From: a virus
Taxonomy: Duplodnaviria; Caudoviricetes
Direction: 5' to 3' (one strand)
Virus record (IMG/VR): IMGVR_UViG_3300037067_006298
Span: 12,667-76,666 of that record
DNA: 64,000 nucleotides
Below are positions 2,678 to 21,972 of this stretch, in pieces. Under the pieces are notes generated by a model. That model searched no databases. It saw only the letters and a program-made list of their open reading frames with translations, and was not told where the DNA came from. Position 1 is the stretch's first letter. Each line of letters begins with the position of its first letter. The translations under genes were made by a program, and so were the position numbers.

Positions 2678-3175
2678 TTACGATAATTGCGGTAAATTTA
2701 CGAATCGTGCTTTGATTGTATATCCATCTGCGATCTTTTCTTCCACGACCTTACGTAGTTCTGCTTTCAATGACCCCTGTATGGTATCCATATCAATAAT
2801 ATTTGCAGCAACTATCACGCATCCTGCCGTATCTTTGTGTGTTTGTCCTCCGTGTGTAAGGCAAGTAGTCCATTTAAGAGGTGGAATAATAATGGTATCC
2901 TTATCTGATTCAGTATGAAAAATGATTGTTTTGCCATAATGAGCATCTTCATACAAAGAAACAAGGCATTCTAATCCTCCCGGCAATGCTGTCTCCCCAT
3001 ATACTTTAATATTTCCCGGGCGACAAGTATCCTCAAGAGTGTTTCCAAAATACTGTTTTATTGGTTGTGGCGGATTTGTAACCAAGATATTATCATAGAG
3101 GAAACTCATCCTTCCAAGTGAAGTCTGTGCGGTGTAATGATACCGTTCTATTAATATCAAGAAAATCTTTTCCAT
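2678..3175 (-). CDS. DUF5675-like putative endolysin (L,D-transpeptidase-like)
   Basis: LIER...TSLG...TLED...KVYGETALP and HGGQTHKDTAGCVIVA His/Cys motif. Confidence 0.7.
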   Translation of the reverse strand: MEKIFLILIERYHYTAQTSLGRMSFLYDNILVTNPPQPIKQYFGNTLEDTCRPGNIKVYGETALPGGLECLVSLYEDAHYGKTIIFHTESDKDTIIIPPLKWTTCLTHGGQTHKDTAGCVIVAANIIDMDTIQGSLKAELRKVVEEKIADGYTIKARFVNLPQLS

Positions 3176-6100: not shown

Positions 6101-9100
6101 TCATCTATGTCCTTTTTGATCTGATCTTCTATGTCATTGGCTCCTCTATCAATACGATTAGTAATATCCTTTACATTATTTTCAGCATTATTTCTGAGTC
6201 CTTCTTCAAATTTCCCTACATCTTCACGTAACTGCTTCGACTCTTCAAATGTGATCTCTCCCTTGTCAAGAGCATCCAATACTTGATCTATCTCAGTGTA
6301 TGTCTTGTCTTTGAACTTAATGCCTTGTGGTGTTGGTTCGGCTTTCTTTTCAGCGATAGGTGCTTCTATTACAGAAGGTGTCCCTGCCTTTACCTCTTTT
6401 GCATAATAGTATTCCTTCAGAAGTTTCTCCGATGCCTTGGCAATATCACCTCTTCCATCCATTAACTTCTTGCCACTCATGTCAAAGAACTGATAGACTC
6501 CTTTTTTTTGTACTACCTTGACCACGGGTTGCCCGTTTTTATTCTGCAACCAAAAGCCTTCCGGATTCTTTACTGCACTCCATCCGTATTTTGATACTGC
6601 ATCATTGAGAACATTAGCCTCGGCGACTCTCTCTGCTCTTTTTTCAGCGACTCTTTTTTTTGCTTCTTCCGATGATATGGATTGTCTTCTTTGCAACTCA
6701 TCATTTATAGAGGTGTATCTGTCGTGTTCTGTCTGAGTTAACGTACCAATACCTGAATTACTCCCAGTTAGCGGAGTATTGCTATTGATGATATTTTGTT
6801 CTCGTTCCTTAATTAGTTTACTGATAGCATCGCTTTCGGTATTCAATTCCACATCAGACATTTCGGCAATTGGTTTCCCCTTGACAGGTTCTTTAAATCC
6901 CAAAGTCTGTTGTTTCAAAATTTCTCCGATCTTGGATTCTCTCTCTTTATTGAGTGCATCAATCTCTTTCGTGAGTTGTGCCTGTCTTTCTTCAAAAGGT
7001 TTCCTTACTGCCTCCAATGACACGTTAAATCCCTGTTCTTCTCTCTTTATTATCTCATCCTTTTCGATAGGTGTCATGTCGCCGAATATCCCATTGCGTT
7101 CATTAGCCTTCTTTATTGCACGGTCAATCTGATTAGGGATGCTTTCAAGTTCTTTCTGCTTATCGACAATCTTAGTGTCGTATTCCTTGTCAATAACCTC
7201 TATTTGCCTTTGTTTAACAGGGTCGGTTGTTCTGACAGGTTTTTCTTCACCTTTTGCAATAACTGGTTTTTGTACTGCTTCTGCGCTTCCTGGTAACTGA
7301 TTTTCTTCTCCCTTGCTAATTGGAGGATTTGGTTCGTTGTTGACTGGTTTTTCATTAGATATAGGTTCGTTCTTTAATTCTTGTTCTTTTCTTGCTTTTA
7401 TTTCAAGTTTCTTTTTTGCAGTCCATTCAGATATTGCACGGACTTCATCAATCCCGGGCCACGATGTTGTTTCTCTATCAAACCATCCGGTGTTGATTTC
7501 TCCTTGTTCGTTAATTGCCACCTTGTCAAGGTGGTCAAATAGTTCTTGTTTGTTCTTATAAGTAACTCCTTCTACAACTAACTCTTTCGGAGTTCCTTCA
7601 TCTTTTCCACGTGCTTCTTGGCCTTCAGGTAACTTATTGCTGCTGCCTCGATTGACTGCTTGCGCACCGGCTTCTTCGTCTGCCCATGCTTGTTCTGATT
7701 TAAGTCTGTCTTTGTACTCATCTTCAAAGTGTTTTTTATAGTCCTGTAACTCTGATTTATCAATTAATCCTGATTCAACTGCTTTGTCAAGTTGTTCTAA
7801 TCCGAATCCTCCATTTTCTTCAACAAAAGCATTGAATTTTTTATCATTAATCTGAGTAGTTAGTTCTTTTGCGGGTATTTCTATTTCCGGTTGCGCTTCT
7901 CCCCTGAACTTCATTGCACCTGTCTTATACATATCTCCAAGTGCATCAACTACTCTCTGGGTGTTCTGATTAGTCTTTCCTGCAAGCAAGTCATCTACTG
8001 CCTTATCTAATGCTTCCCCATATACCGGAATGTCTAATCCGTACAGGTGTTCTTTCGCTTTCAGTAAGGTTGCGGTAAACTTCTTTTGTTCTACATCGGG
8101 TATATCATCAAGTTTCTGGTATTCTCCTTTTGTCGCAGTTCTTTTTATATTCTTGCCATTGCTATTAATAATAGTCAAGTCAGTTCCTTCCATCTTCATC
8201 TGATGTCCTGATTCTGGAAGTAATCCCTGTATTTGGCGCATCACGGCTGCACGTTTCTTATTGTATGACTTTGGAATAGAATTATATTCATCCCTGAGAT
8301 CGGCAAGTCTATCATTCAATCTGGCTTTCTTTGCTTCCGGTGTTTCTTTTGGTGCTTCTGTGGGTTTCCATTTAGAAAGCATCTCGTCCCTTTTTGCTGC
8401 AACCACTTCTTTCGTGCTACCTTCTGGTACTAACATCTGAGTTCTTGCACCATTTGGAGTTGTTACATCATAAGCATCCCATTTTTTACCCTCACCGTAA
8501 TCCTGTGTCCCTGCGGGATTAATTCCAAGTTCCTTCCCTATTTCTTCAGGAGTTTGTGCTTTTACTTCTTCTTTTGGTGTAATTTCATTTTCTTTTTCCT
8601 TTGCTACTGATTCTGGTACTTTTAATTCTCCAATATTTAATGAAGTTGTACCCTTGTCTTTTACTTCATATTTTTCCAAAGGTGTACTAAAAATGTCTAT
8701 ACGTGCTTTCTTTGCCTCCTTAATCTGGTTCTCTAATGCTTCAATCTTTGCTGCTTTAACGTCTGGTTCAATGTCGGTTTTTTCATTCCAATAACCAAGT
8801 TCATTTTCCAGACTCTTTATGTTTTCAGAGATAGGTTGAGATTCGAGTATTCTCGGATCAACCATATTTACAGTATTGTTAATCTTATTTGTCCAAATCT
8901 TCTTTTCTCTGGCAGACAATGTCTGGTCTGAATTGATATTCTCGATAAATGCTTTTGGATTTTTAAGTATTTGATTTGTCGTGAAGGCAATATCAATGGT
9001 ATTATCAACTATGTTTTTTTGCCACAATAACTTATCCTTCTGTTCTCCCTCGTATTTCTTTGATTTCTCATAGAGTTCATTCGATTCCTTTCTTAATTTG

Positions 9101-10668
9101 AATGGATCAATTTTCTGTGAAGCAACCATGCGGATATTATTATCTGTGGCAGTCATCCAGTTTAGCATTGCCTTTTTTTGCATACCTGCCTTAATCGCTT
9201 CGGGTGCTCCAAGTGCTGAAAATGCAAGTCCTTCCAGTAATCCTTGTTTTGCACTACCCCCCTGTGCTGCGGTTATCCCTCCAAATCCGAGTGAATTTGC
9301 AAGAACTTCTGCGGATTTTGATGTCCACATACCGGCACCAATACTTTTACTGATTTCTCCAATCTCTTTGGCCCAAACACCGAGTCCATTATAAACCATA
9401 CCCTGTGCTGCTGTCTCTAAGCTGGTGGGTACTATTTCTTTTAACTTCTTCCCTTGCTTTGCTTCTTCGATATAAGTCTTTGTTCCAAGATATGCAGGAA
9501 ATTTAATCATGCCCTGCAACCCATATTTAGCGAGCAATGGGGCTTTCATTTCTGGCAGCATACTCATTCCTATCAGATCTGGAATAAACGCACCGGTGCT
9601 TTCCAATGCACGTCCCCATTCATTATTTGGAGTACGTGTCTTTACTGCACTGTCAAGCCATTTGGCTGCACCTTCATATCCTTCTTTCATTATGGAAGAC
9701 TGATTGCCGTACATGCCATTATCAATAGCGGAAGCAACTTGTTCCATGTATTTCTGAGTAGTTTCAGAATCGTATCCTTTTAATTTGGCACCAACTTTAA
9801 CACCTGTCATTGCTGCCTCTTTCTTCATTTGCTCCGGGACTTCATTTAGGATATAACCAATATCCCGAATCATATTAGCAGTACCCTTATAAATTCCATT
9901 TATTACTGCCCCTGTATAAGATTCTCTGTACTGCGGTGTTGGTTTATAGAGTCCTGCATCTTCCAATTTCTTATCAAAGTCAATTTTCTCATCAACGTCA
10001 ATAAGTCTATCGGTATTAACATCAGGTTTTAACCCAACAACATCAGGTGTGACTCCTCTTTTTTTCAAATAATCATCAACGGTAAAAAGATATGGTTCCC
10101 TAACATCAAGTTTTGCAAGGGTTTTATCAACTGGAGTTGTGGTTTCTTCCGGTTTCTTTTCCTTTATTTCTTTTAAGGAAGGGACTTCTTTTACCTCTTT
10201 TGGTTTCCCAATAGTTTCCGGTTCTCCCATTTGACGTGGATTAATTCCGGTTTGTTCAGAAATATCTTCTACCTCTTTGCCCAAAGGGATACCCAATGCT
10301 TTAGAAACATCAGTCCAATGAGGATATTGAAGTGTCTCGGGATTATCTATCTGTTCTGGATTTGCTTCTTTGGAAGTATTGCTTTCCAGTTTCGGAATGT
10401 CACCTGCTACTTTTGAAAAAATGTCTCCAAGAATTTTTGAACTCGGCAAACCATATTCTGAAACGTCTTTTTTTTTTAATCCAAGATCAGAGACAAAGGT
10501 TTCGTAATCCGGCATCTCATATTTATCTGCCACCAAAGCATCATAAAAGGTTTTTGATTTTGCGGGATCTTTTAATGTCTGTTCAAATGTAGCATAGTCA
10601 GGTACTCCATAATTGGACTTTACCAGACTCTCGTGAAATGCCTCTAATTTCGGATTGTTATTTTCCAT
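3175..10668 (-). CDS. Giant internal virion/ejected cargo protein (2497 aa)
   Basis: Position after the tail genes; helical, charged composition; duplicated N-terminal PDYxTF motif; C-terminal region resembles large polyvalent virion proteins. Confidence 0.6.
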   Translation of the reverse strand: MENNNPKLEAFHESLVKSNYGVPDYATFEQTLKDPAKSKTFYDALVADKYEMPDYETFVSDLGLKKKDVSEYGLPSSKILGDIFSKVAGDIPKLESNTSKEANPEQIDNPETLQYPHWTDVSKALGIPLGKEVEDISEQTGINPRQMGEPETIGKPKEVKEVPSLKEIKEKKPEETTTPVDKTLAKLDVREPYLFTVDDYLKKRGVTPDVVGLKPDVNTDRLIDVDEKIDFDKKLEDAGLYKPTPQYRESYTGAVINGIYKGTANMIRDIGYILNEVPEQMKKEAAMTGVKVGAKLKGYDSETTQKYMEQVASAIDNGMYGNQSSIMKEGYEGAAKWLDSAVKTRTPNNEWGRALESTGAFIPDLIGMSMLPEMKAPLLAKYGLQGMIKFPAYLGTKTYIEEAKQGKKLKEIVPTSLETAAQGMVYNGLGVWAKEIGEISKSIGAGMWTSKSAEVLANSLGFGGITAAQGGSAKQGLLEGLAFSALGAPEAIKAGMQKKAMLNWMTATDNNIRMVASQKIDPFKLRKESNELYEKSKKYEGEQKDKLLWQKNIVDNTIDIAFTTNQILKNPKAFIENINSDQTLSAREKKIWTNKINNTVNMVDPRILESQPISENIKSLENELGYWNEKTDIEPDVKAAKIEALENQIKEAKKARIDIFSTPLEKYEVKDKGTTSLNIGELKVPESVAKEKENEITPKEEVKAQTPEEIGKELGINPAGTQDYGEGKKWDAYDVTTPNGARTQMLVPEGSTKEVVAAKRDEMLSKWKPTEAPKETPEAKKARLNDRLADLRDEYNSIPKSYNKKRAAVMRQIQGLLPESGHQMKMEGTDLTIINSNGKNIKRTATKGEYQKLDDIPDVEQKKFTATLLKAKEHLYGLDIPVYGEALDKAVDDLLAGKTNQNTQRVVDALGDMYKTGAMKFRGEAQPEIEIPAKELTTQINDKKFNAFVEENGGFGLEQLDKAVESGLIDKSELQDYKKHFEDEYKDRLKSEQAWADEEAGAQAVNRGSSNKLPEGQEARGKDEGTPKELVVEGVTYKNKQELFDHLDKVAINEQGEINTGWFDRETTSWPGIDEVRAISEWTAKKKLEIKARKEQELKNEPISNEKPVNNEPNPPISKGEENQLPGSAEAVQKPVIAKGEEKPVRTTDPVKQRQIEVIDKEYDTKIVDKQKELESIPNQIDRAIKKANERNGIFGDMTPIEKDEIIKREEQGFNVSLEAVRKPFEERQAQLTKEIDALNKERESKIGEILKQQTLGFKEPVKGKPIAEMSDVELNTESDAISKLIKEREQNIINSNTPLTGSNSGIGTLTQTEHDRYTSINDELQRRQSISSEEAKKRVAEKRAERVAEANVLNDAVSKYGWSAVKNPEGFWLQNKNGQPVVKVVQKKGVYQFFDMSGKKLMDGRGDIAKASEKLLKEYYYAKEVKAGTPSVIEAPIAEKKAEPTPQGIKFKDKTYTEIDQVLDALDKGEITFEESKQLREDVGKFEEGLRNNAENNVKDITNRIDRGANDIEDQIKKDIDDKNSELHMKLFPDLWSKAGTAQWKVLDPVRTALANTIAKQLKKGVTSQSDELRWSTKVLTNLYNGLLRTQKDMHGSGIPGQIGKLEMSGAREYGKYKARNLLDSWRAMVKGDWDSLVRVWSVLDPTLATKPTENPLTYGDLGLAEKNLYFALKEWMTWGHEITYANGLIPTKTYLKFKDVTGSSNYIARMYDKFEMDILSDPAIREFAERGNDSYTSKIAADIYKARKELNGVVEINGHEYDSIEALKEARDNGEITSEQYTESKDVVKSDEWRREHAIKDPTYIVAKRIMQTIQNVAIKQYMDAVITNHPEYVLTLPKNAEIPKGFRRMGSSYAWGPFRNKVVANHIVEDFTGFFYQNALVNTTYDAVKMLDRTKLNQFYKKYRTVYNPFVQTGNITGNVFFATINGINPFMFIKGMYDNRNISKRNPALYESLLKAGYIGPVAMTGELKPLDILNPEQGAFGKFDEFATKAYVGADNLAKISAYQIYRRQGLTHEQAIRRGYDAFQNYATVGKTWDIASKIPLFGPTFVKFQADLQRILVNNMLTTPLTTIGTVMMIKMLGNLSSALSGETEEEQMIREQRKGVPRIPFVDIPLSFKVGKREVNVARYLSPLYLYNRGDSEMELSELSKFMPIQFQQKEEGKMFPLPAFADATWGWLGSVIADKDFRGMSISDPKKTAFTDPNTPTEIKVWNVINYALRSQMPFYKGTRDVIAGATGQLDYYGRKRTWFDAIINNVIKIQQFDKPEIKNYVERNLNYLTSKYASLATKMGDAQSVFYKTIKEAEDKELSPEAQESIYKAAVKLRDKSIGKSLEEQIPVYQEIERLTEVYKKWYPNDQYLQDNYMNIESGKNQRFNVLDGIDLQKNYPEEYSLLKKNNLIKRPEIPKYWQGKALTDEEKKAYSNIYWSEYIRILDSRDLLNQEGMDEMGGRISRREKVDTPSGIKEVSRLQDMANDAALRARMLADREFRKTKQ

Positions 10669-12119: not shown

Positions 12120-12836
12120 TTAATCACCTGTATCTCCTACTCCGGTACTTTTCCCTCTTACAGAATTTAATATTTTAGTTGCTTTAGCAATTTCTTCTGG
12201 CGTATATGTCGCAGCACCAACAGTTGATCCTCCGTTTAATAAAGAGGAATTAAAATCAGGAGAGATTAATTCTGCTGTCGATCCAAATGCGTTCTTTACT
12301 CCTGCAAATATATTCTGAGTCCCGGAATTTCTTAACTGTGATGCCATTGCTGCTGCCTGTTGATACGGTTGTGCCTTATTGTAATCCCATACCCTGTTTT
12401 CTTCACCGGCTTTTACTCCAAGTGCGTTCATGTATTCTCCCTTTGAACTTTGGACTTGCTGTGCGGTTAGTTTTGCCAAGTCTCCAAATGAGTTTTGTTC
12501 CCTTCCGACCATTTCTCCAAGTGCACCATAAGCCTCTGCGCCTGATCCGAGTTCTGATGCCTGTCTCAATCCTGCTGCGGTGGCTCCTTTGATCTCATTA
12601 CGATACATTTCACCGCCAGGGATATCCTGATTAAGGGTTTGCCCATAGGCATAATTAGTAAGTTTGTTCACACTTGGAGCAATCTCTGCAACAGGTCTCT
12701 TGTATTGTTCTTCGAGTGCATTTGCCTTCTTTAATTGAGATGCGCCCGTAATACCTTGATATATCGAGGGCACTAAATTAAGTACCTGAGAAATAATTGC
12801 TGCTGTCCCTAACATGGCTTTAAATATTACGTTCAC
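12120..12836 (-). CDS. Putative DNA ejection/pilot protein
   Basis: Ala/Gly/Gln-rich with a hydrophobic N-terminus (MLGTAAIISQVLNLVPSIYQGITG), immediately after the muzzle gene. Confidence 0.55.
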   Translation of the reverse strand: MNVIFKAMLGTAAIISQVLNLVPSIYQGITGASQLKKANALEEQYKRPVAEIAPSVNKLTNYAYGQTLNQDIPGGEMYRNEIKGATAAGLRQASELGSGAEAYGALGEMVGREQNSFGDLAKLTAQQVQSSKGEYMNALGVKAGEENRVWDYNKAQPYQQAAAMASQLRNSGTQNIFAGVKNAFGSTAELISPDFNSSLLNGGSTVGAATYTPEEIAKATKILNSVRGKSTGVGDTGD

Positions 12837-15462
12837 TTAATGTTGAAAATATCACAACCGAATCAACTCTTACTTTTTCTGTGTGTTCATCAGTAGTAAG
12901 TTTTACAAAACAATATCTTCCTCTCATCTCTCGTCCATTTAACTTCTTACTTATTGTAGATGCAAATACACCTTTTGAGTTCTCGTCCCGCATTATCTTT
13001 CCATAATAAATTCCTTCCCTTCGATCAAATATAGGGATATTGGTTTCCATTATCTCATTAACTGCTGATGCTTCTTCTGGAATATAGGTAGATTTAGTAA
13101 CGGATTCCAATAAGTGATCTGCGATAACGGCAATGGCATTGAACACTTTATTTTTAGATGGTTCCATATTAGAAACAACTTCAAATTCTGCTTCGGTATC
13201 CGTTCCTGCCCACGATAAGAAATCCTGTCCTTCGTCTATGTTCATAATCCACAATTTCTGATTATACAAATGTGCGAAAAAATTCCCTAAGTGAAGGTAA
13301 CTTTCCGTGATTTGATCTATCTCAGAAATATAACGTCCTTTTTTCTCACTGAAAATGATACCCTTAACAGTACTTCCGATACGGAACGTGATCCATACTT
13401 CTTCAAAATCGTTATTTGCTCCAATATTCACAACCAGAGATGAACGGCTACCGTCTGAATGAATCCATTTAGATAAGTCCTTGAACCATCTTGACATCTT
13501 ATATTCTGCTCCCGATAGTGATATTTGCCCATTTGGAGCAGATCGGATAAATGCACCCTGTGAGTTATCCCAATAATACAGATTCCTCCCATTAACCGTG
13601 ACACTATCTGGGTGTTGGCACCCATAATCTGTCTCCATAGGTCTTTGTTCTGCAAGGAACTTATCTGTGAGAGTGAATTGTTCTGTGCCATCAGGATTAA
13701 AGGTCTGTATCCGGTTAATGTAAATAGATGTCTCTTTATACATCTGGATAACCTTCAATGTGAATCCTACTTCCCTTAATCCTGTTATGTCTCCATTCTT
13801 CTTGGGAAGATCCATGAAGTCATCATAGGTGAAGTGTGCGATATTATTTGTCCGGGTTCCAGTTATAAGGAATCCACCATGTCTTATCCTTTCGTCAAGT
13901 ACCGTCTGTCTCTGGCTCAAATCATCCAAGAACGGGAATCCTTGTGATGTGAGTTTATTGGAGATAATCTGATCTTTCCACCAATCACTCGGGAATATAC
14001 TATCTGCCCAGAAAGGATAAATAATATTTGTTGAATGCTTATAATTTAATCTTATTAATTTATAACAATCGTGTGCTGTATTATTAACTTCAGCAGGGGT
14101 AATTACAATTCCTTCGGCAGAAAAAGTTTGATCTATATTCCCTTTATGATAACTATTTCCATTTGCATCTGTCGCAATATCAAATACCATTCCAGTACCA
14201 TAAGGTGTTGTTATCCCTAATCCTTTTCGTGGACGATAAACTTCAACTATTATATTTGTTGCACCCTCAAATATAGTAGGATGTTCTGCTGCCTGAACTA
14301 TTAACCAATCTCCGCCCACTGCTTCTTCATCATATTGCGTCCCCGTGGCTTCAATCTCGTAGTCATAAACGAAGTCGCTTCCGATAGCCTGTCCGTAACC
14401 GGTTCCTGCATCAATAGTCCCTACGAGTCTTAAACGATCTCCTTCTTCCCATGAGTATGCGGGTACTTTCCATCTATTATTTTTGTTTTGAGTCCATTCA
14501 AACGTATCCGTGATATTTATAGAATACCGATTATTTCCTAGTCCGTAAATATTATCTGCTCGTATTTGCATGAAATAGTCCATTGAGATATTTCCATAAT
14601 AAACTATCTCATACGTTTCCGCCCATGATGGAGGTTTGTGAGATATCTTGAATTTAATAGCAACTCTTTCTTCTAATTTAGGACCACCTGATTCTGAATA
14701 GAAAGGGATATTGATGTTCATTAAATTTGTTTTCATAACTGAACATTGTCTCCCTGCCCTATCCTTGTAAACAATGGCATATCCATGTGTAGCACCACAT
14801 TTAAGATTATTAAAAGTTAAAGTGTATCCTTTTGGATATATAGATGCTTCATACACATAACCACTCATTGCCATATCTGGAAGAAAGAATAAAAAGATAG
14901 AATAATCTTGTTCAATTATTTGCTCCCACATATAGATTTGATTAGAAGGAGAACCTGCGACTACATCTATTCCTCCTCCTGTTAATGATGATTCTAGTCC
15001 TGCTTTTACATCAGTTAATGAATCCCCGATTCCTGGCACATAAGAACCAGAATACGATTCTCCTGCTGTGTTATTAATACTGACGTAATAAGTCGCTCCT
15101 TCATATATCTGATCGGGAATAACAAGTACTAATACAACTTTTATAGTAGCATGGACACGTCCTCCACTCATAGGCACGAGCGTTCTTTCAGTCTCATAAG
15201 CATATAAAGCTAATCGTAATTGTGGATTAGTGCTCCCAATATCAATATATGTTATCTCACTGGATACCTGAATATCATCCACAACATCATAACCCTCGGT
15301 TATTTTTCCAAATACAAGTGCATTGCCTCCTACTAACTCCATCTGTCCTGCTATGATAGGGATATAAGTGAAGGGTTCTGCAACTATACTTGCATCTATT
15401 ATCTCTTTTACCCTGTCATTGTAAAAGGATAAATTATAATCCGAGTTATGACCTATTACCAT
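12820..15462 (-). CDS. Tail muzzle/nozzle (tubular protein B-like), C-terminal fragment
   Basis: LSFYND...EPFTYIPIIAGQMELVGGNALVFGKITEGYD, LKCGATHGYAIVYKDRAGRQCSV, GCQHPDS, LYYWDNSQGAFIR, LNGREMRGRY; these match my recollection of the middle and C-terminal blocks of crAss-like muzzle proteins. Confidence 0.7.
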   Translation of the reverse strand: MVIGHNSDYNLSFYNDRVKEIIDASIVAEPFTYIPIIAGQMELVGGNALVFGKITEGYDVVDDIQVSSEITYIDIGSTNPQLRLALYAYETERTLVPMSGGRVHATIKVVLVLVIPDQIYEGATYYVSINNTAGESYSGSYVPGIGDSLTDVKAGLESSLTGGGIDVVAGSPSNQIYMWEQIIEQDYSIFLFFLPDMAMSGYVYEASIYPKGYTLTFNNLKCGATHGYAIVYKDRAGRQCSVMKTNLMNINIPFYSESGGPKLEERVAIKFKISHKPPSWAETYEIVYYGNISMDYFMQIRADNIYGLGNNRYSINITDTFEWTQNKNNRWKVPAYSWEEGDRLRLVGTIDAGTGYGQAIGSDFVYDYEIEATGTQYDEEAVGGDWLIVQAAEHPTIFEGATNIIVEVYRPRKGLGITTPYGTGMVFDIATDANGNSYHKGNIDQTFSAEGIVITPAEVNNTAHDCYKLIRLNYKHSTNIIYPFWADSIFPSDWWKDQIISNKLTSQGFPFLDDLSQRQTVLDERIRHGGFLITGTRTNNIAHFTYDDFMDLPKKNGDITGLREVGFTLKVIQMYKETSIYINRIQTFNPDGTEQFTLTDKFLAEQRPMETDYGCQHPDSVTVNGRNLYYWDNSQGAFIRSAPNGQISLSGAEYKMSRWFKDLSKWIHSDGSRSSLVVNIGANNDFEEVWITFRIGSTVKGIIFSEKKGRYISEIDQITESYLHLGNFFAHLYNQKLWIMNIDEGQDFLSWAGTDTEAEFEVVSNMEPSKNKVFNAIAVIADHLLESVTKSTYIPEEASAVNEIMETNIPIFDRREGIYYGKIMRDENSKGVFASTISKKLNGREMRGRYCFVKLTTDEHTEKVRVDSVVIFSTLSERNI

Positions 15463-15471
15463 CTCGATAAA

Positions 15472-15888
15472 TTAACTTATATGAATAATACCAAGTGCGT
15501 TCCATTGGATTGTACTTGTTCCATTGGAAACTATCTGGTTGGTCAAAAAGTCAATTTGTGCCCGTATTGGAGACGTTGCCGGATTTGTTGTGTCTTTATA
15601 CAAGATACCATACCGGTAATTAAGGCTTGTGTTCGGGCCAATCACTTTATCTGTGGCATCAAGATAATAATTATTACCATCAGCCGTAGATGCTTTCCCT
15701 GCTATTGCGACACCTCCTGCGGTATATGCTCCCGATGCTGCAACTTCGTTTGCGGAGACAGATGAGACATACTGTTGTGTCCCGGCATTAGGAACATGAG
15801 TACTGGTAAGTAACATGAGTTTCCATGTTTCTGCCACCCATACGTCAATAATCTCTTTTTTTACGAATTTAGGAATTAAACTTGCCAT
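15472..15888 (-). CDS. Small virion structural protein (tail-associated family)
   Basis: KLMLLTSTHVP...ANEVAASGAYTAGG...ILYKD...IDF...TIQWNALGII pattern seen in tail-region genes of other phages. Confidence 0.55.
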   Translation of the reverse strand: MASLIPKFVKKEIIDVWVAETWKLMLLTSTHVPNAGTQQYVSSVSANEVAASGAYTAGGVAIAGKASTADGNNYYLDATDKVIGPNTSLNYRYGILYKDTTNPATSPIRAQIDFLTNQIVSNGTSTIQWNALGIIHIS

Positions 15889-15892
15889 AATT

Positions 15893-18361
15893 TTAAATAT
15901 AAATAGTTGCTAAATCAATTACTACAATATCACCTGCCAATAAAGTAACATCAAGAACAATAGTCCCATTATAATAGTCATACATAGCAGATACACTACT
16001 TCTTCCCTGTACCACTCCATTTACTTTTGCTCTCCAATATAGTGTAAATGGGTTTGATCTTCCTGTTACCGGATCAAAATAAACAGACATATAAACATTT
16101 TTACTTCCACTCGTAGATGAGGCGTGTCCTATTGACATTACTAATCCTGCGGGTTCAGTAGAATCCACTTCTACCGTACAATCAATAGCAGTCCCAACCG
16201 GAGGAGTACCTGTTGCCTGTTCTACAAAAACAGAAACAGTGTCTCCTAATGGGCCTAATCCTGCTACTACGGTTCCAAATGTAATTGCCTCTGACGGTTT
16301 TGCGCTTCCTGTATTTTCAGCAGTTGGGAATACATACAAAGTATCTCCTGTATTAAAATACATCCCAACTACTAATTCGTATGTGCCTCTCATTATGGTT
16401 ATCCATGACGGCTTCGATACAAGATACCCGTTATAAGGTAAACAAGTGATTATTACATCTTGTTTTGATGAAAGTCCATATTCTGCTGCCGTCCATATCA
16501 TGTGTACTAATGATGCTTCTATGCTCGATAGAATAGTAACGGGCAGTAGTGCCGAAATGACTGTATTTACATAATCAGAAGCACTTTTTGAAATATCTTC
16601 AGTAGATAAATACACGTCAACGGTTTCTCCTGCGCTAATATTCCTGCCAAGAGATATGGTTTTTGTATTATTTGTGCTATTTACAACTGTAAAACTACCA
16701 TACCCATACGGGAGCACTCCAATATTTGCCCTCCAAAACATAGTAAACGATATTCCAGAACCATAGTCAGAATTATCTACCCTGAATGAAAGATTAACGA
16801 CATTACTTGCGCTCATTGCATTAGCCAAGGCATTAGATATTGTCATATCAGGGTCAACTACATCGGGGTCTTTCTGGAGGGTACAGGTTATTGCGACTGG
16901 TACAGGTTCTGTTGCTCCGGTTTGTTGTACAAGGATAGAGGTACTATCTCCATAAGTATTTGACATTACAATATATCCCGTTCGAGCAACACCTACTACG
17001 GTGTTTTCTGTTGATGGAAACGCATAAATTATTTCTCCGTCAACCATTGTCATCCCGGCAGACATTACACTTCCCTCAGAACCTCCTCCGTTTCTTTCTA
17101 TTGTAAGCCACGAAGGAAAAGATGTTAAGTATAATGTTGTTGGAGCACAATCAATTGTAATTGATGATTTATTCGCATACCCATAGGCAGTGGCTCCCCA
17201 GTTCATTGCAGGAATGGATGAGACATAAGATAATACTACTGTTGGGAGAAGGGGTGTAATATTCATATTAACCACTGCACTACTTGGATTATTTACTGAT
17301 ATAACGGTCGGTGCGGGTAACGTCAAAGACATTGTGATATTTTCAGCATTGGTAGTTACTGATATTTCCTCTGCCCTCTCTTGTTCACTGAATTTGTCAA
17401 TAGTCTCAATAAGATACCATTTTGAAGGATCGTCACTGCTTCTACCAATGACTTCTATTGCTCTGACTTCTTCCCCCCCTGAGTTGACGGTTATCTTTAA
17501 CTTATTATTGAGTGATATTTGCTCATTTGCAAGTCCTGTGGCAGTTTCTTCTTCTGCCTGTGGCACCGGAACAATACTTGCCGGGGAAAATGTGCTCTTT
17601 CTCCAATCCATGTAAACATACCGATATGCAACTTGAAATAATGTCTGCCTTAAATTATTTATCTTACGATTATCGTCTGATTGATATGTTACTATCGGAG
17701 GATGAGATGGGGGGGTTGGTTCAAAATAGAAATTCTTAACATTCATTGAATAATACGCATCTTCAATCAGGCATTTTAGGTCTAACCAATTTGCACCAGA
17801 ATCACTTTTTGGCTCATTGCCATAATTAGAATGAACAAGACTCTTATAGTATTTATTCCCATTAGAGACAATCTGGTCTACCCCATAACTTACTGTGGTA
17901 CTCCATTCAACTGTTGTGGGATATTGACCATAACCAATTTTAAGTGCAAATGATTTCTTTGCCCTCTCAATATCCATCTGGTAAATCGGATTCTTATTGT
18001 CTGTCCATATTAATCTTCCGTGTACTACTCGAGGATTGTATATTTTGAAAAGAGGATCAAATCCGATGTTATTATTCTTGTCATAATAAACAACTGTCTG
18101 GACACGAGTGTCAATATTTATTTCAATTATCCATGATGCCTGATAAAAGGTATCAATATAGAATACATAAAGATTCCTGTTTTCTGGATCAATACATTTC
18201 CCATTTAAAAGGATATTGGTGTATTTAGAATCTTCTTTAGAATTAATTACAGTTCCGTCAGAGATAAGCCTTACTGATCTCCAATGAGATTTTAATGCAA
18301 CTGTCTTAGTGGCAACTGCACTGTTATAGGATAAGGATAATATTTTGGCTGTTGTACTCAT
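15893..18361 (-). CDS. Muzzle middle fragment with a CBM5/12-like insert, fused to duplicated BACON/Ig-like domains
   Basis: GKCIDPENRNLYVF, RLIWTDNKNPIYQMDI, FQVAYRYVYMDWRKSTFSPAS muzzle blocks; WSTTVSYGVDQIV...YKSL...EP...W module; two roughly 225-aa Thr/Val/Ser-rich repeats. Confidence 0.65.
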   Translation of the reverse strand: MSTTAKILSLSYNSAVATKTVALKSHWRSVRLISDGTVINSKEDSKYTNILLNGKCIDPENRNLYVFYIDTFYQASWIIEINIDTRVQTVVYYDKNNNIGFDPLFKIYNPRVVHGRLIWTDNKNPIYQMDIERAKKSFALKIGYGQYPTTVEWSTTVSYGVDQIVSNGNKYYKSLVHSNYGNEPKSDSGANWLDLKCLIEDAYYSMNVKNFYFEPTPPSHPPIVTYQSDDNRKINNLRQTLFQVAYRYVYMDWRKSTFSPASIVPVPQAEEETATGLANEQISLNNKLKITVNSGGEEVRAIEVIGRSSDDPSKWYLIETIDKFSEQERAEEISVTTNAENITMSLTLPAPTVISVNNPSSAVVNMNITPLLPTVVLSYVSSIPAMNWGATAYGYANKSSITIDCAPTTLYLTSFPSWLTIERNGGGSEGSVMSAGMTMVDGEIIYAFPSTENTVVGVARTGYIVMSNTYGDSTSILVQQTGATEPVPVAITCTLQKDPDVVDPDMTISNALANAMSASNVVNLSFRVDNSDYGSGISFTMFWRANIGVLPYGYGSFTVVNSTNNTKTISLGRNISAGETVDVYLSTEDISKSASDYVNTVISALLPVTILSSIEASLVHMIWTAAEYGLSSKQDVIITCLPYNGYLVSKPSWITIMRGTYELVVGMYFNTGDTLYVFPTAENTGSAKPSEAITFGTVVAGLGPLGDTVSVFVEQATGTPPVGTAIDCTVEVDSTEPAGLVMSIGHASSTSGSKNVYMSVYFDPVTGRSNPFTLYWRAKVNGVVQGRSSVSAMYDYYNGTIVLDVTLLAGDIVVIDLATIYI

Positions 18362-18364
18362 AAT

Positions 18365-20332
18365 TTAAGGGATATCACGCATACATCTTACTGCCCATCC
18401 CCATTTTTTATTCGCAGTATTAGTATTAAAATAAATTTGATTATAATATGCAAATTTACCTAAAGCACTTATCGAACTACTTTCTGTTGCACTCCAATAA
18501 TCTCCTTCATCGTTTATCTTTTGAAACACTCCAGTAGAATTTAGTCTCTGTCCCGAACCTAATAAACTAAAATTATATTCATCAGTTGCTCCTGTATTAG
18601 GTGTTGTCCAATGGGTTGTTCCCACCTCTTTTAATTTACCACCTGCAACTGCACTACCCCCTAAAAATGTTATAAGTGTATCAAAATCTGTTTGGCTCGG
18701 TATTCTCCATCCCGCAGGTGCAAGTCCGTGAACGTTATCTACTGCATACCAATTATACAATGCTCCATAAGGTGTTTTGTTTACTATGTCATTATTATAC
18801 CAACAGTATGCGCCAGTAACTACATAAATAGTAGACTTTAAATCATAGGTAGGATATGTAGACCATACACCAGATACACTATGCCCCATCATACCTCCTG
18901 AATATACATCCCCGGTTTGAAAAGCGAGTGATATACAATTGTTTTGATCATGTGTAATAACGTCTTCGTATGACACGACAAAACAATACGTTCCCGCAGC
19001 AAGATCAATATTATTAAAAAGAAATATAGCCCCCGCTGATATATCACCCGGTGTTGCGATATTTAAAGAGTCTGCTATCTTTACTGAAGGGAGGTCTCCT
19101 ACTGAAGTATAAATACTAAGTCTAATATTAAAGTTAGGGGAACCACCTAAAGACCCAGATAATTCGATACCGCTTACCGTGCTATTTCCTACTGTAAAAC
19201 TCTGAGATATAGGGTTCTCAACCGGGGATGCCCATGAACTTATATTACCGTTACTTGTAGAACTAATAACGAGATTACTCCCTGCATTAGTCCACTGGGT
19301 ATTATCGGTTATATTTAATATTGGTGTTCCATCGGCATATTTAGTAGTCTTTAAATTCTCAACCAACCATTGTTGATTCCCGATGGTTACATAGGTATAA
19401 GCATTCCCATCCGCATCAACAACTCCATCAAGTGTTTTTATTGTTTGTATATTAGAATTATCTCCTGTCCCTACTTCATTATATCCTCTTACACGATAGT
19501 AGTAATTAGTAAATGGACTTAACCCAATAATGCTATAAGTTAATACATTGCCTACATCAAGGTTATTATATCCTGCAACCAACGAAGTAAACAAGGCATC
19601 AGTAGCCACATCCAAATAATATCCAGTTGCGCCTCCTGCAATACTCCAGTTTGTTACAAATGTAGTTACGGTAATTTCACTTCCATTTAATGCTACAGGT
19701 GCTTCCGGCACTCCATCGTCCTGTAACCACAAAAGACAATTATTTCCAAGTAATTCAAATAACAAATCAAATTTACCTCCCGGGACTGCCGTAAACGCTG
19801 ACAAGTCATCTGCTCCTGTATTAGGTGTTGTCCATAACTCAGTACCGACATTCTTCATCTTCCCTCCTGCGATCATCACTCCACCAAGATATGTTAATAA
19901 GGTGTCAATATCTGCCTCTGTTGGTACTCTCCATCCTGCCGGACAAAAGGTTGATGACATTATCTGATCATGCGTATATAGTCGTCCGTAAATAGGTGCG
20001 TTATCCTCGTCATCATCATAGACTTTTGAACCAGGATAATTAACATCATAGTTCTTTTTCATCCATGTCTGAGTCCCGATAACAATTTCATCATAGCCAG
20101 AATAGACAAATTGCCCTCCAATAGATGTACCATAATATGTAATAGTTGAATCAGGTGAAATTAATATCCCTATCTCTCCTTGCAATGTTTCAAGTATCCC
20201 TTCCCCGTGTTGTTCGGAAGACCCTCCTGTACGAATGTTCAATGCTCCAACATAGTCACCCTCAGGTAAATTTGCGGGGTTATCGTCTGAATTTAACCCA
20301 CCAAAAAATCGTTTTTCTGATTTTATTTTCAT
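18365..20332 (-). CDS. Muzzle N-terminal fragment fused to FISUMP (Fib_succ_major) x2 and FN3 domains
   Basis: FFGGLNSDDNPANLPEGDYVGALNIR N-terminus; IGTQTWMKKN, YGRLYT, CPAGWRVPT, YGALYNWYAV, WAVRCMRD FISUMP motifs; GLSPFTNYYYRVRGYN FN3 motif. Confidence 0.7.
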   Translation of the reverse strand: MKIKSEKRFFGGLNSDDNPANLPEGDYVGALNIRTGGSSEQHGEGILETLQGEIGILISPDSTITYYGTSIGGQFVYSGYDEIVIGTQTWMKKNYDVNYPGSKVYDDDEDNAPIYGRLYTHDQIMSSTFCPAGWRVPTEADIDTLLTYLGGVMIAGGKMKNVGTELWTTPNTGADDLSAFTAVPGGKFDLLFELLGNNCLLWLQDDGVPEAPVALNGSEITVTTFVTNWSIAGGATGYYLDVATDALFTSLVAGYNNLDVGNVLTYSIIGLSPFTNYYYRVRGYNEVGTGDNSNIQTIKTLDGVVDADGNAYTYVTIGNQQWLVENLKTTKYADGTPILNITDNTQWTNAGSNLVISSTSNGNISSWASPVENPISQSFTVGNSTVSGIELSGSLGGSPNFNIRLSIYTSVGDLPSVKIADSLNIATPGDISAGAIFLFNNIDLAAGTYCFVVSYEDVITHDQNNCISLAFQTGDVYSGGMMGHSVSGVWSTYPTYDLKSTIYVVTGAYCWYNNDIVNKTPYGALYNWYAVDNVHGLAPAGWRIPSQTDFDTLITFLGGSAVAGGKLKEVGTTHWTTPNTGATDEYNFSLLGSGQRLNSTGVFQKINDEGDYWSATESSSISALGKFAYYNQIYFNTNTANKKWGWAVRCMRDIP

Positions 20333-21114
20333 CTCTTGGGGGCCTGATGTGTCGTACTATAAAACATTTGAAGATATTCACTTGCTGTAAATGAATTACT
20401 AAACGATCTTAATGCCTCGATCTGTTGATCATACTCTCTTTTAAGTCGTTCTTTTGCGTTATTTGATATACGTGGATCATTCTCGTCTCGTTGCCATAGA
20501 ACGTATGCCCTGAGTGCAGCAACACACTCACGAGGTATCATGGATGATCCGTCTGTCTTTAATCCGGTTGAGATATATTCCATCACTATCTCAGATCGAG
20601 GGGAAGAACCAGAGAACACCAGTTGTCTGTTTTCTCTATCTACCCTGAAATAACAATCGTCAATGCCTCCGGGAAGGCCATACAGCCCTCCTACGAAAAC
20701 ACCATTCCGGTAATGATCACTGAAGAAGATGATGCTGGAAACCAAATCCGCTCCTATTGCTGCACCATAATAATTACCAATCAATTCCCCTGTGTCATCA
20801 AATGTTCTTGGAAACAATATGTTATCATTATGAGATATGACTCTCAGTTGACCATTATAAGGATACCCTATTTTTATGTAATCAACAAAGTCGGATGGTA
20901 ATTGAACTGTCTTCGCTGCGCTCATGTGTAAATACACCACCTCGGAACCAACATCCAAGTGATACATGGCAAGGTCTTCCGAAAATCCTTCAATAGCTAT
21001 CTGTACAAGCCTCTTATACTGAACAAGAGAATAGTCATTAAGTCTGTTTAGCACGGACATTATGACATAACGAATTGTTACTAAGCCACCTGTTTTCGGA
21101 GATATATTTGACAT
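20329..21114 (-). CDS. Tail ring/adaptor protein, paralog 1
   Basis: Clearly paralogous to the adjacent ORF (PKTxGLVTIR...LPxDFxDxxKxGYP...IVxEYISTG); located in the tail module. Confidence 0.65.
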   Translation of the reverse strand: MSNISPKTGGLVTIRYVIMSVLNRLNDYSLVQYKRLVQIAIEGFSEDLAMYHLDVGSEVVYLHMSAAKTVQLPSDFVDYIKIGYPYNGQLRVISHNDNILFPRTFDDTGELIGNYYGAAIGADLVSSIIFFSDHYRNGVFVGGLYGLPGGIDDCYFRVDRENRQLVFSGSSPRSEIVMEYISTGLKTDGSSMIPRECVAALRAYVLWQRDENDPRISNNAKERLKREYDQQIEALRSFSNSFTASEYLQMFYSTTHQAPKR

Positions 21115-21135
21115 CTTATGAGGATATTAGTTTTC

Positions 21136-21972
21136 CTATGAGGTTTTCTTTGCGGACTGATGGCTTGTGGTATAAAGCATTTTCTTATACTCCTCCATTG
21201 CCAGTGCATTTTTGAAACTACGAAGCGATTCAACGGCATCCTTGTATTCTGCTTTACGTCTTGTTCTTTCACTTTCCGGCACTTTCATGTCGTGTTCTAC
21301 CATCTGCCACAAGATATATGCACGAAGGGGGATAATAGTCTCTCTTGGCACCATAGAACTACCATCTGACTTCATCCCTGTTGAGATATACTCCAATACA
21401 ATTTCTGATCTCGGTGTGTTTCCTGAAAATACTATCTGCCTATTTTCCCTGTCAATGCGATAATAAGCCTGATCAACTCCTCCGGGTAATCCAAATAACC
21501 CTCCAATAAACTGTCCGTTACGAAAATGATCGCTAAAGAAAATTTGATTTGGATCTTCGGTGTCTGCCACGAATACTCCTCCGATTACTGCGCCATAAGT
21601 TGTATTCCCAATTGCAGTTCCGGTGTCTGCAACAAATATTCCTCCGATAGTACTCCCATAAAATGTTCTTGGTAACAGGATATTATCATTGCGTGTAATA
21701 AGCCTTATTTTCCCATCAAGAGGATAACCTACTTTAACAAAATCAATAAAGTCGGCAGGCAGCGGAACCGTCTTCGCTGCGCTCATGTGTAGATATACCA
21801 CTTCAAGTCCTTCTTCGGAATGAAATAAACGAAGTTCCTCGATGCCTTCAATGGCAATTTCGACTAATCGCTTGTATTGTCTCATGGAATAGTCCTGCAC
21901 CCTGTTTAAGACTTGCATTACTATATGTCTGATTGTTACCAGACCGCTTGTTTTCGGGTTCTCTACACTCAT
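21136..21972 (-). CDS. Tail ring/adaptor protein, paralog 2
   Basis: Tandem paralog with an internal duplication of YGxxIGGxFVADT. Confidence 0.65.
   Translation of the reverse strand: MSVENPKTSGLVTIRHIVMQVLNRVQDYSMRQYKRLVEIAIEGIEELRLFHSEEGLEVVYLHMSAAKTVPLPADFIDFVKVGYPLDGKIRLITRNDNILLPRTFYGSTIGGIFVADTGTAIGNTTYGAVIGGVFVADTEDPNQIFFSDHFRNGQFIGGLFGLPGGVDQAYYRIDRENRQIVFSGNTPRSEIVLEYISTGMKSDGSSMVPRETIIPLRAYILWQMVEHDMKVPESERTRRKAEYKDAVESLRSFKNALAMEEYKKMLYTTSHQSAKKTS

What the first reader, a model, noticed from the sequence alone, without database searches (positions are those of the whole stretch)
12820..20332. Tail muzzle gene split into three ORFs, with the first two pieces extended by adhesion domains
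Seen: the three sequence blocks I recognise from single-chain crAss-like muzzle proteins are collinear but in separate ORFs. The first roughly 55 aa (GGLNSD...DYVGALNIR) start ORF 20332; the next roughly 300 aa (GKCID...WTDNKNP...FQVAYRY...LIETIDK) are in ORF 18361; the rest (SFYND...IP..AGQ...GYD onward) is ORF 15462. By my boundary estimates each break holds about 1.9 kb of foreign coding sequence: FISUMP/FN3 domains in the first, BACON/Ig-like domains plus a separate 138-aa gene in the second. I found no direct repeats or intron/homing-endonuclease signatures at the junctions. ORFs 20332 and 18361 are in frame across a single TAA-ATT-ATG. Inference: a beta-propeller assembled in trans from three chains, each new terminus displaying receptor-binding domains at the tail tip; alternatively an unknown recoding or splicing event rejoins them.
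Basis: partly seen in the sequence, partly recalled or inferred. Interest (0 to 1): 0.8.

Follow-up and report, generated by a model that had tools for sequence, protein, structure and literature searches.

The report
Phage tail muzzle split into three genes
In a complete 76.7-kb environmental phage genome, the large tail-tip "muzzle" protein that relatives make as one chain is encoded as three separate genes plus a small tail-protein gene, and the first two pieces carry swappable sugar-binding-type domains, so the tail tip itself seems to serve as the mount for host-recognition modules.

Summary
ORFs 18365-20332 (A, 655 aa), 15893-18361 (B, 822 aa) and 12820-15462 (C, 880 aa), all on the minus strand, tile without gaps onto single-chain muzzle proteins. 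A 1-57, B ~41-329 and C 2-880 match residues 1-57, 58-341 and 343-1195 of the nearest unsplit relative. That relative's model has the crAss001 muzzle as its top PDB match. The complete genome holds no other muzzle gene. The same four-gene layout (A, B, a 138-aa gene, C) recurs in all nine related loci (seven distinct phage types; one has A and B fused) and in more than 100 protein clusters. On a tree the split forms are one derived clade.

New here: the A/B boundary lies inside a nested FISUMP domain, not in muzzle sequence. Chain A holds about the first two-thirds and B residues 5-36 supply the missing last strands, in all seven genomes tested.

Read-through or splicing is unlikely. The frame relation is not conserved, and no intron RNA, intein or tRNA was found.

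The nearest precedent is the two-piece nozzle of Pseudomonas phage A1002. This scan's other note on this stretch is the same finding.

The parts
18365..20332 (-). Gene A (P0001, 655 aa): muzzle N-terminal segment followed by FISUMP / FN3 / FISUMP modules
   Evidence: ORF list and translation. Pfam Fib_succ_major 166.7 bits, fn3 23.4 bits. More than 100 protein clusters share the N-terminal 190 aa but have variable C-termini.
20162..20332 (-). A residues 1-57: the N-terminal segment of the muzzle (by alignment, the start of crAss001 gp44)
   Evidence: hhalign against the single-chain alignment: residues 1-57 match 1-57, prob 98.9%, E 1e-17, 44% identity. Against crAss001 gp44, residues 1-59 match 1-58, prob 58%. 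tblastn of P0132 1-51 hits here at E 1.3e-10.
19700..20083 (-). A residues ~84-211: FISUMP-a, a FISUMP domain lacking its last ~35-50 profile positions
   Evidence: Pfam profile positions 2-134 of 187. It covers positions 13-130 of a full-domain HMM in all 7 genomes.
19448..19702 (-). A residues 211-295: FN3-like domain
   Evidence: Pfam fn3 23.4 bits, below the cut-off of 25. phmmer against solved FN3 domains gives E 6e-6.
18377..19390 (-). A residues 315-652: second FISUMP domain (FISUMP-b), interrupted by a nested insert of about 155 aa (residues 349-504)
   Evidence: Pfam profile 1-34 at residues 315-348 and profile 33-187 at residues 505-652.
15893..18361 (-). Gene B (P0002, 822 aa)
   Evidence: In 26 of the 32 closest representative clusters the query's first residues align at, or within a few residues of, the hit's own N-terminus. 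The other six are truncated fragments, the fused form P0122 and P0129. C-termini vary and lengths run 301-1219 aa.
18254..18349 (-). B residues 5-36: the missing C-terminal strands of FISUMP-a
   Evidence: hhalign to the last 32 residues of a complete FISUMP domain, prob 76-83%, E 1e-5 to 2e-5, exactly contiguous with where FISUMP-a stops. An in-silico join gives one full domain, adding 13-22 bits over FISUMP-a alone, against 0-3 bits for shuffled controls, in 7 of 7 genomes.
17375..18241 (-). B residues ~41-329: muzzle residues 58-341 (first propeller strands plus a beta-rich domain that may correspond to crAss001 IG1)
   Evidence: HMM against P0132 71-338, iE 2e-69. hhalign of B 200-329 to 213-341, E 3e-49. 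phrog_14478 profile 167-282. hhalign to gp44 68-347, prob 98%.
15896..17374 (-). B residues 330-822: extension made of two tandem units of about 235 aa, each with a BACON-like motif
   Evidence: Self-comparison 34% identity, E 3e-27. No Pfam or PDB sequence hit. All Atlas structural neighbours carry BACON, but at TM 0.24-0.33, which is weak.
15472..15888 (-). 138-aa gene (P0004): small beta-protein whose fold resembles small phage tail and fibre subunits. It is present wherever break 2 is split and is not adjacent to the muzzle gene in two single-chain relatives.
   Evidence: phrog_644. Conserved in L001-L008 and L011. Not adjacent in L012 and L013. Model pLDDT 62. VIA Z-scores: 8.5 Bxb1 tail tip, 8.3 KP1 baseplate, 7.2 Sf14 neck, 7.2 GP4 fibre I, 5.4 phage 7-7-1 tail fibre.
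12820..15462 (-). Gene C (P0003, 880 aa): muzzle residues 343 to the end (remaining propeller strands, the large variable distal domain and the C-terminal domain)
   Evidence: HMM against P0132 349-1195, iE 3e-206. hhalign of C 2-91 to 343-431, E 8e-25. Pfam crAss_MUZ_C 24.1 bits, below the cut-off of 27. phrog_14478 profile 966-1213.
20329..21972 (-). Context: two paralogous virion structural genes (likely tail-barrel ring proteins) directly upstream, as gp43 precedes gp44 in crAss001
   Evidence: Both hit phrog_13977. crAss001 gene order is.

Best explanation
This is a real, clade-wide gene fission of a crAss-type tail muzzle (podophage nozzle) protein.

Likely history (inferred):
- An ancestral single chain of about 1200 aa took in foreign coding sequence at two loops, corresponding to residues 57/58 and 341/343 of the nearest unsplit relative.
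- At the first site a FISUMP domain was inserted in-chain. A second, variable cassette (FN3, further FISUMP, Lcl_C/DUF1566 or LRR modules) then landed inside that FISUMP domain. In most genomes this cassette carries the stop and start codons that separate genes A and B.
- At the second site the insert is a tandem BACON-like extension ending in a stop, a free-standing 138-aa tail-protein gene, and a new start codon.

Likely mechanism (inferred, not shown):
- The three products assemble non-covalently into one muzzle subunit, and, as in crAss001, into a hexamer.
- A 1-57 supplies the N-terminal segment, B ~41-329 the first propeller strands and the adjoining beta-rich domain, and C everything else.
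- A and B are additionally clasped by complementation of the split FISUMP domain. A holds about the first two-thirds and B residues 5-36 hold the last strands.
- The variable C-terminal modules of A and B then project from the muzzle as exchangeable host-surface-binding modules, anchored because they are part of the muzzle fold itself.
For: Shown:
1. Seamless collinear tiling of A, B and C on single-chain relatives and on crAss001 gp44 at profile level.
2. The nearest single-chain relative, P0132, folds with pLDDT 88.5. Its top PDB matches are the crAss001 muzzle chains 7qol_P and 7qok_A (E 3.6e-34), followed by SU10, A4, VP1, P22, GP4 and T7 nozzles. Both breaks fall between predicted strands of that model.
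3. The genome is complete (76,666 bp, terminal repeats, CheckV 100%). P0132 matches only these three places, in order, so no other muzzle gene exists.
4. The four-gene layout recurs in all nine related loci, which are seven distinct phage types at 49-76% identity (L001-L003 are near-identical, and L011 has A and B fused). It also recurs in 89 C-like clusters, about 26 B-like clusters and more than 100 A-like clusters.
5. The same sequence occurs in landfill (2018) and groundwater (2022) metagenomes. A variant strain about 98% identical differs by substitutions only across both junctions.
6. On a tree of the B-homologous region, split forms are one clade (SH-aLRT 98), sister to a single-chain clade (99) and nested among single chains (97).
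7. The conserved parts are exactly the muzzle-derived parts plus the two FISUMP halves. The C-termini are variable.
8. FISUMP complementarity: A covers HMM positions 13-130 and B covers 133-167. The joined score rises by 13-22 bits over A alone in 7 of 7 genomes, against 0-3 bits for shuffled controls.
9. A natural fused A+B protein (P0122, locus L011) reads straight through the same junction.

Precedent: phage A1002 builds its nozzle and seven-bladed propeller from two proteins, and small fibre genes lie between the two nozzle genes (PMC13730344).
Against: - No physical evidence of assembly. The complex predictor was unavailable, and there are no virion proteomics or expression data.
- The match of B 5-36 to the FISUMP C-terminus is short (32 residues, prob 76-83%). 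An alternative local alignment places B 27-40 on muzzle residues 44-57.
- The mapping of breaks to crAss001 domains is indirect, because the middle of the sequence alignment to gp44 is unreliable and model coordinates could not be inspected.
- A binding function for FISUMP, FN3 and BACON-like modules is inferred from family knowledge, not tested.
- The Pfam crAss_MUZ_C hit on C is below the curated cut-off (24.1 against 27).
Confidence: 0.8

Rival explanations
1. The pieces are rejoined at expression, by stop-codon read-through or frameshifting across the A/B and B/C junctions, by RNA splicing, or by protein splicing, so the virion carries one chain.
For: - A and B are in frame across a single TAA-ATT-ATG.
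- The 138-aa gene and C are also in frame.
- A natural fused A+B protein exists (P0122), so a fused product is tolerated.
Against: - The frame relation is not conserved. A and B are out of frame or overlapping in L004, L005, L007 and L008. The 138-aa gene and C are out of frame in L001 (coordinates).
- Joining B to C would have to skip a conserved, independently folded 138-aa gene that exists free-standing in unrelated phages.
- No Rfam intron family was found, and no intein or homing-endonuclease domain appeared in Pfam.
- There is no tRNA in the window.
- All stops are TAA.
- The inserted sequences encode conserved domains rather than intron-like sequence.
Confidence: 0.04
2. Only C forms the functional muzzle ring. 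A and B are now independent fibre-like proteins that keep vestigial muzzle segments merely as docking peptides, possibly in sub-stoichiometric amounts, so no complete single-chain-equivalent fold is rebuilt.
For: - C holds about 70% of the muzzle, including the C-terminal domain.
- Conserved N-terminal anchors with variable C-termini are typical of receptor-binding proteins.
- In A1002 the second nozzle protein also acts as a fibre scaffold.
Against: - The muzzle-derived parts of A and B are as well conserved as C across the clade, with many invariant positions.
- They retain 39-49% identity to the unsplit relative with no residue lost at either joint. That fits retained structural roles better than vestigial ones.
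- B carries about 290 residues of muzzle sequence (first propeller strands plus the adjoining beta-rich domain), far more than a docking peptide.
Confidence: 0.12
3. The stops are assembly or sequencing errors, or the genes are decaying pseudogene fragments.
For: None found.
Against: - The same architecture occurs in nine related loci (seven distinct phage types), in more than 100 protein clusters and in several metagenomes from different studies.
- The ORFs are long, intact and conserved.
- The genome is complete and has no alternative muzzle gene.
Confidence: 0.01

Closest known systems
crAss001 tail muzzle protein gp44 (PDB 7QOK/7QOL; Pfam crAss_MUZ PF25731 and crAss_MUZ_C PF25729; Bayfield et al. 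2023, PMC10172136)
   Same: - Homologous at profile level along the whole length.
- The nearest unsplit relative has it as its top structural match (E 3.6e-34).
- Same genomic position, after the ring-protein genes and before the large downstream genes.
- The paper notes length variation by insertions.
   Different: - gp44 is one 1371-aa chain. Here the same sequence is spread over three genes.
- Each of the two breaks holds about 1.9 kb of foreign coding sequence, and break 2 includes an extra gene.
- The insertions reported for crassviruses lie in the crass and IG2 domains, not at these two sites.
- The phage is not a close crassvirus. Its TerL is 28-32% identical to Flavobacterium, Cellulophaga and Maribacter podophages.
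Split nozzle of Pseudomonas podophage A1002 (nozzle-rope gp39 plus nozzle-base gp42; PLoS Biol 2026, PMC13730344)
   Same: - A nozzle and seven-bladed propeller built from more than one polypeptide.
- One piece carries a long extension used for fibre attachment.
- Small fibre genes (gp40, gp41) lie between the two nozzle genes, as the 138-aa gene lies between B and C.
- Those fibres are likened to GP4 fibre I, which is among the fold matches of the 138-aa protein.
   Different: - A1002 has two pieces, not three.
- In A1002 the upstream gene carries the C-terminal-type platform and propeller parts, so the pieces are not simply collinear. Here the tiling is strictly collinear and seamless.
- No split FISUMP clasp is described there.
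- Homology between the two systems was not tested.
Single-chain muzzle homologues of uncultured relatives (P0130-P0144, about 1190-1280 aa) and of Maribacter phage Panino
   Same: - 36-43% identical to the fragments.
- Same flanking genes.
- The Panino homologue spans residues 8-400 in one piece.
   Different: - Unsplit.
- No adjacent 138-aa gene in the two loci examined.
- P0137 has an in-chain Lcl_C-like insertion at a different loop.
Receptor-binding proteins with a conserved N-terminal anchor and exchangeable C-terminal modules (general phage principle; for example the Klebsiella podophage tailspikes in PMC12692247)
   Same: Conserved N-terminus, hypervariable C-terminal domain combinations, and evidence of strain-level module replacement.
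   Different: Here the anchor is not a separate docking domain. It is a piece of the nozzle fold itself, plus half of a split FISUMP domain.

Membership tests
crAss-type tail muzzle (gp44-like; PF25731/PF25729) | Sequence match to the crAss_MUZ_C C-terminal domain model | tested here: inconclusive
   C residues 751-826 score 24.1 bits against a cut-off of 27. gp44 itself scores 97.3 bits. Several C homologues carry precomputed PF25729 or PF25731 hits.
crAss-type tail muzzle (gp44-like; PF25731/PF25729) | Whole-length fold similarity to the solved crAss001 muzzle | tested here: met
   Tested on the nearest unsplit relative, P0132: 7qol_P and 7qok_A are the top hits (E 3.6e-34, prob 1.0, TM 0.48). 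The window's fragments tile P0132 seamlessly. The window's own chains were not folded.
crAss-type tail muzzle (gp44-like; PF25731/PF25729) | Encoded directly after the tail-barrel ring-protein genes in the structural module | tested here: met
   phrog_13977 paralogues lie at 20329-21972, and TerL, portal and MCP lie upstream.
crAss-type tail muzzle (gp44-like; PF25731/PF25729) | One polypeptide per subunit | tested here: not met
   There are three ORFs separated by stops, conserved across the clade.
crAss-type tail muzzle (gp44-like; PF25731/PF25729) | Hexameric assembly closing the tail | not testable with these tools
Podophage nozzle proteins (T7 gp12, P22 gp10, SU10, VP1, GP4) | Platform/ring-joining domain plus seven-bladed beta-propeller fold | tested here: met
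   For P0132, Foldseek gives prob 1.0 and E 4.5e-15 to 7e-8 against nozzle chains of SU10, A4, Pa223, VP1, P22, E1004, GP4 and T7. Blades were not counted from coordinates.
Split (multi-chain) nozzle as in phage A1002 | Nozzle fold divided between separately encoded proteins, with small fibre genes between them | tested here: inconclusive
   Division into separate genes is met. The intervening 138-aa protein resembles small tail and fibre subunits only at Z 5.4-8.5, from a model with pLDDT 62. Homology to A1002 gp39-gp42 was not tested.
FISUMP / Fib_succ_major (PF09603, TIGR02145) | Pfam model above the gathering score | tested here: met
   166.7 bits against 33.9, in three stretches.
Fibronectin type III (PF00041) | Pfam model above the gathering score | tested here: inconclusive
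   23.4 bits against 25. phmmer against solved FN3 domains gives E 6e-6.
BACON (PF13004/PF19190) | Pfam model match in B 330-822 | tested here: not met
   No Pfam family at E up to 0.1 and no PDB sequence match. The only support is weak Atlas structural neighbours at TM 0.24-0.33 and a motif-level resemblance.
Group I/II intron, intein or homing-endonuclease insertion | Intron RNA model, intein or HNH/LAGLIDADG domains, or flanking repeats at the junctions | tested here: not met
   Rfam gives only two sub-threshold chance hits. No such Pfam domains were found. No flanking direct repeats were found.

The most novel reading that the evidence does not exclude
The two halves of a split FISUMP domain, about two-thirds on chain A and the last strands at the start of chain B, act as a non-covalent clasp that re-links the muzzle pieces. 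The gap between the halves is a dedicated landing site where receptor-binding cassettes are exchanged by recombination between the two conserved flanks. The muzzle would then be a plug-in scaffold for host-range modules, held together by fold complementation rather than by a docking domain.
Probability: 0.4. Interest if true: 0.75.

Novelty: new variant of a known kind. Interest (0 to 1): 0.62.

Why it matters
The muzzle or nozzle is the gate through which podophage DNA and cargo proteins leave the virion. It has been treated as one conserved chain in crAss-type phages.

A widespread environmental lineage encodes it in three pieces, with variable glycan-binding-type modules grafted onto two of them. 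This suggests a route by which a conserved tail-tip protein became the mount for host-recognition domains. Together with phage A1002, it makes multi-chain nozzles a recurring solution rather than a one-off.

It offers natural examples of fold complementation, in the propeller and in the FISUMP domain, that could be tested directly. It also warns annotators that 'FISUMP domain protein' genes next to a shortened muzzle gene are parts of the muzzle.

Tried and rejected
- megablast and tblastn of the region and of C against the phage collection found nothing.
- phmmer of B, C, P0096, P0097 and the B extension against PDB sequences found no muzzle match. Sequence is too diverged, and only the fold search worked.
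- Pfam on the 138-aa family gave nothing, including nothing for Gp80 PF23140. Foldseek on its model gave no hit at E <= 0.001.
- I first took P0137 to be an intermediate for break 1. I rejected that because its Lcl_C-like insert sits at a different loop, around residue 112.
- A possible duplication of the muzzle hairpin 44-57 in both A and B was not supported by direct A-against-B comparison (prob 0.2%). B's N-terminus is better explained as FISUMP strands.
- The global alignment of P0132 to gp44 is unreliable between about residues 150 and 870, so it was not used for domain mapping.
- No RNA holder was listed among the sequencing runs. Contigs show no credible joined form, only one skip at depth 2.
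- Literature searches for a split crAss muzzle, or for FISUMP in Crassvirales, found nothing.
Full report
**What is there.** On the minus strand lie four tightly packed ORFs:
- A: 18365-20332, 655 aa.
- B: 15893-18361, 822 aa.
- A 138-aa gene: 15472-15888.
- C: 12820-15462, 880 aa.

The A/B junction reads TAA-ATT-ATG in frame. The B stop and the start of the 138-aa gene are 4 nt apart. The stop of the 138-aa gene and the C start are 9 nt apart. TerL, portal, the major capsid protein and two paralogous structural (ring-type) genes lie upstream, and a 2497-aa ORF lies downstream. This is the order seen around crAss001 gp44.

The window belongs to a complete 76,666-bp virus record with terminal repeats. 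Its closest cultured relatives by TerL are Flavobacterium, Cellulophaga and Maribacter podophages, at 28-32% identity. The sequence occurs in landfill and groundwater metagenomes.

**The fragments are one muzzle.** PHROG 14478, a 1474-position virion protein profile, hits B at profile 167-282 and C at profile 966-1213. An exhaustive search with B 1-350 returned two kinds of protein:
- Close relatives at 52% identity or more. In 26 of 32 the query's first residues align at, or within a few residues of, the hit's own N-terminus. The other six are truncated fragments, the fused form P0122 and P0129.
- Chains of about 1200 aa, at 36-43% identity, with the match at about residues 70-340.

HMMs of the three fragment families hit such a chain, P0132, at 1-51, 71-338 and 349-1195 (iE 4e-11, 2e-69, 3e-206). 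With larger alignments the joints are exact:
- A 1-57 matches P0132 1-57 (prob 98.9%).
- B 200-329 matches 213-341.
- C 2-91 matches 343-431.

P0132 folds confidently (pLDDT 88.5). Its best PDB matches are the crAss001 muzzle chains (E 3.6e-34), followed by the nozzle proteins of other podophages. In that model both breaks fall between strands: E54-56 and E68-75 for the first, E323-334 and E350-354 for the second. Profile alignment to gp44 is collinear too: A 1-59 to 1-58, B 54-327 to 68-347, C 217-872 to 547-1368. gp44 carries Pfam crAss_MUZ and crAss_MUZ_C. C reaches crAss_MUZ_C only below the cut-off.

**The split is real, conserved and derived.**
- Nine related loci (L001-L008 from IMG/VR and L011), representing seven distinct phage types at 49-76% identity, keep the order A, B, 138-aa gene, C. 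L001-L003 are near-identical. In L011, A and B are fused into P0122.
- Database searches return 89 C-like clusters, about 26 B-like clusters and more than 100 A-like clusters.
- The muzzle-derived N-terminal parts are conserved, while the C-termini of A and B vary. They combine FISUMP, FN3, Lcl_C/DUF1566 and LRR modules, and lengths run 362-1107 aa for A and 301-1219 aa for B.
- The complete genome has no other muzzle-like sequence.
- On a tree of the B-homologous region, split forms are one clade (SH-aLRT 98), sister to a single-chain clade (99) and nested among single chains (97).
- One natural protein, P0122 in locus L011, is A fused to B through the same junction. It is followed by a 139-aa gene and a C-like gene. 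It nests among split forms, so it is either a re-fusion or a retained ancestral state.
- A and B are in frame in the window, L001 and L006, but out of frame or overlapping in L004, L005, L007 and L008. Read-through is therefore not a conserved mechanism.
- No intron RNA model, intein, endonuclease domain, flanking repeat or tRNA was found.

**What the inserts are.** In A, the layout after muzzle residues 1-57 and a conserved linker is as follows:
- FISUMP-a, residues ~84-211, which covers Pfam profile positions 2-134 of 187 only.
- An FN3-like domain, residues 211-295.
- A second FISUMP domain, itself interrupted by a nested insert of about 155 aa.

B begins with 40 conserved residues that are not muzzle sequence. 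Residues 5-36 align to the last 32 residues of a complete FISUMP domain, exactly where FISUMP-a stops. I built an HMM from complete FISUMP domains, leaving out the window's own row. With it, FISUMP-a covers positions 13-130 and B's N-terminus covers 133-167. Joining the two in silico gives one continuous domain. The score rises by 13-22 bits over FISUMP-a alone, against 0-3 bits for shuffled controls, in all seven genomes tested.

The A/B gene boundary and the variable cassette therefore sit inside a FISUMP domain that had itself been inserted into the muzzle loop. This explains why conservation in A runs on to about residue 205, and why B's first 40 residues are conserved.

B's C-terminal extension (330-822) is a tandem duplication of a unit of about 235 aa (34% identity, E 3e-27). 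BACON likeness has only weak support.

**The 138-aa gene.**
- It accompanies the second split in every split genome examined.
- It is not adjacent to the muzzle gene in two unsplit relatives.
- It has free-standing homologues in Gordonia and Caulobacter phages and in the satellite MiniFlayer.
- Its moderate-confidence model (pLDDT 62) resembles small tail and fibre subunits: Bxb1 tail tip Z 8.5, KP1 baseplate 8.3, Sf14 neck 7.2, GP4 fibre I 7.2 and phage 7-7-1 fibre 5.4, then a drop to about 4.3.
- The Atlas feature search also pointed weakly to GP4 fibre I (0.87).

Its role is not established.

**How it most likely works (inference).** A, B and C assemble in trans into one muzzle subunit. B and C share the propeller. 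A adds the N-terminal segment, and the split FISUMP domain clasps A to B. The variable modules on A and B are displayed from the muzzle as host-surface-binding domains. The 138-aa protein is probably an accessory tail or fibre subunit.

A variant strain about 98% identical, from the same kinds of habitat, keeps both junctions but becomes unlike the window upstream of position 18390, inside A's C-terminal module. That fits cassette exchange.

**Comparison with known systems.** crAss001 gp44 is the homologous single chain (PMC10172136). The only multi-chain nozzle I found described is that of Pseudomonas phage A1002. There two proteins complete the propeller, one acts as a fibre scaffold, and small fibre genes lie between the two nozzle genes (PMC13730344). 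The present case differs in four ways: it has three pieces, the tiling is strictly collinear and seamless, a nested split FISUMP domain is involved, and it spans a large uncultured clade. No paper on a split crAss-type muzzle was found.

**Limits.**
- Model coordinates could not be inspected, so the three-dimensional placement of the break loops is inferred.
- The binding function of the added domains rests on family knowledge only.

Noticed in passing
window 18390 and upstream (C-terminal module of gene A): Contigs of a strain about 98% identical, from groundwater and landfill runs, match through B and both junctions but run on unlike the window upstream of 18390. This suggests strain-level replacement of A's C-terminal module.
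   Followed up: partly
window 18836-19288 (A residues ~349-499): The second FISUMP domain of A is interrupted by a nested insert of about 155 aa with no family match, between Pfam profile positions about 34 and 33.
   Followed up: partly
L012:546-4760 (P0137): A single-chain muzzle relative carries an in-chain Lcl_C/DUF1566-like insertion at a different loop, around residue 112. The same lineage therefore accepted adhesin-type domains independently at another site.
   Followed up: partly
L011:2247-4832 (P0122): A natural fused A+B protein (861 aa) reads through the junction that is a stop/start in the window. It is followed by a 139-aa gene and an 887-aa C-like gene, giving a two-piece version of the muzzle.
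   Followed up: yes
window 15472-15888; L014, L015, L016: Homologues of the 138-aa protein (27-39% identity) are free-standing in Gordonia, Rhodococcus and Caulobacter phages. In the satellite phage MiniFlayer the homologue sits directly after the major capsid protein gene.
   Followed up: partly
L007:10001-13030 compared with window 12820-15462: The N-terminal half of C, the distal variable domain, is much more diverged (44% identity) than the C-terminal half (76%). Many C homologues of about 1000-1065 aa share only the C-terminal ~56% of C with the window.
   Followed up: no
window 24684-26531: A 615-aa ORF with a DUF2341 domain (62 bits) lies in the structural module and may be a fibre or surface protein.
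   Followed up: no
window 3175-10668: A 2497-aa ORF lies downstream of the muzzle genes, in the position of the giant cargo or RNA-polymerase-like genes of crAss-type phages. It was not analysed.
   Followed up: no
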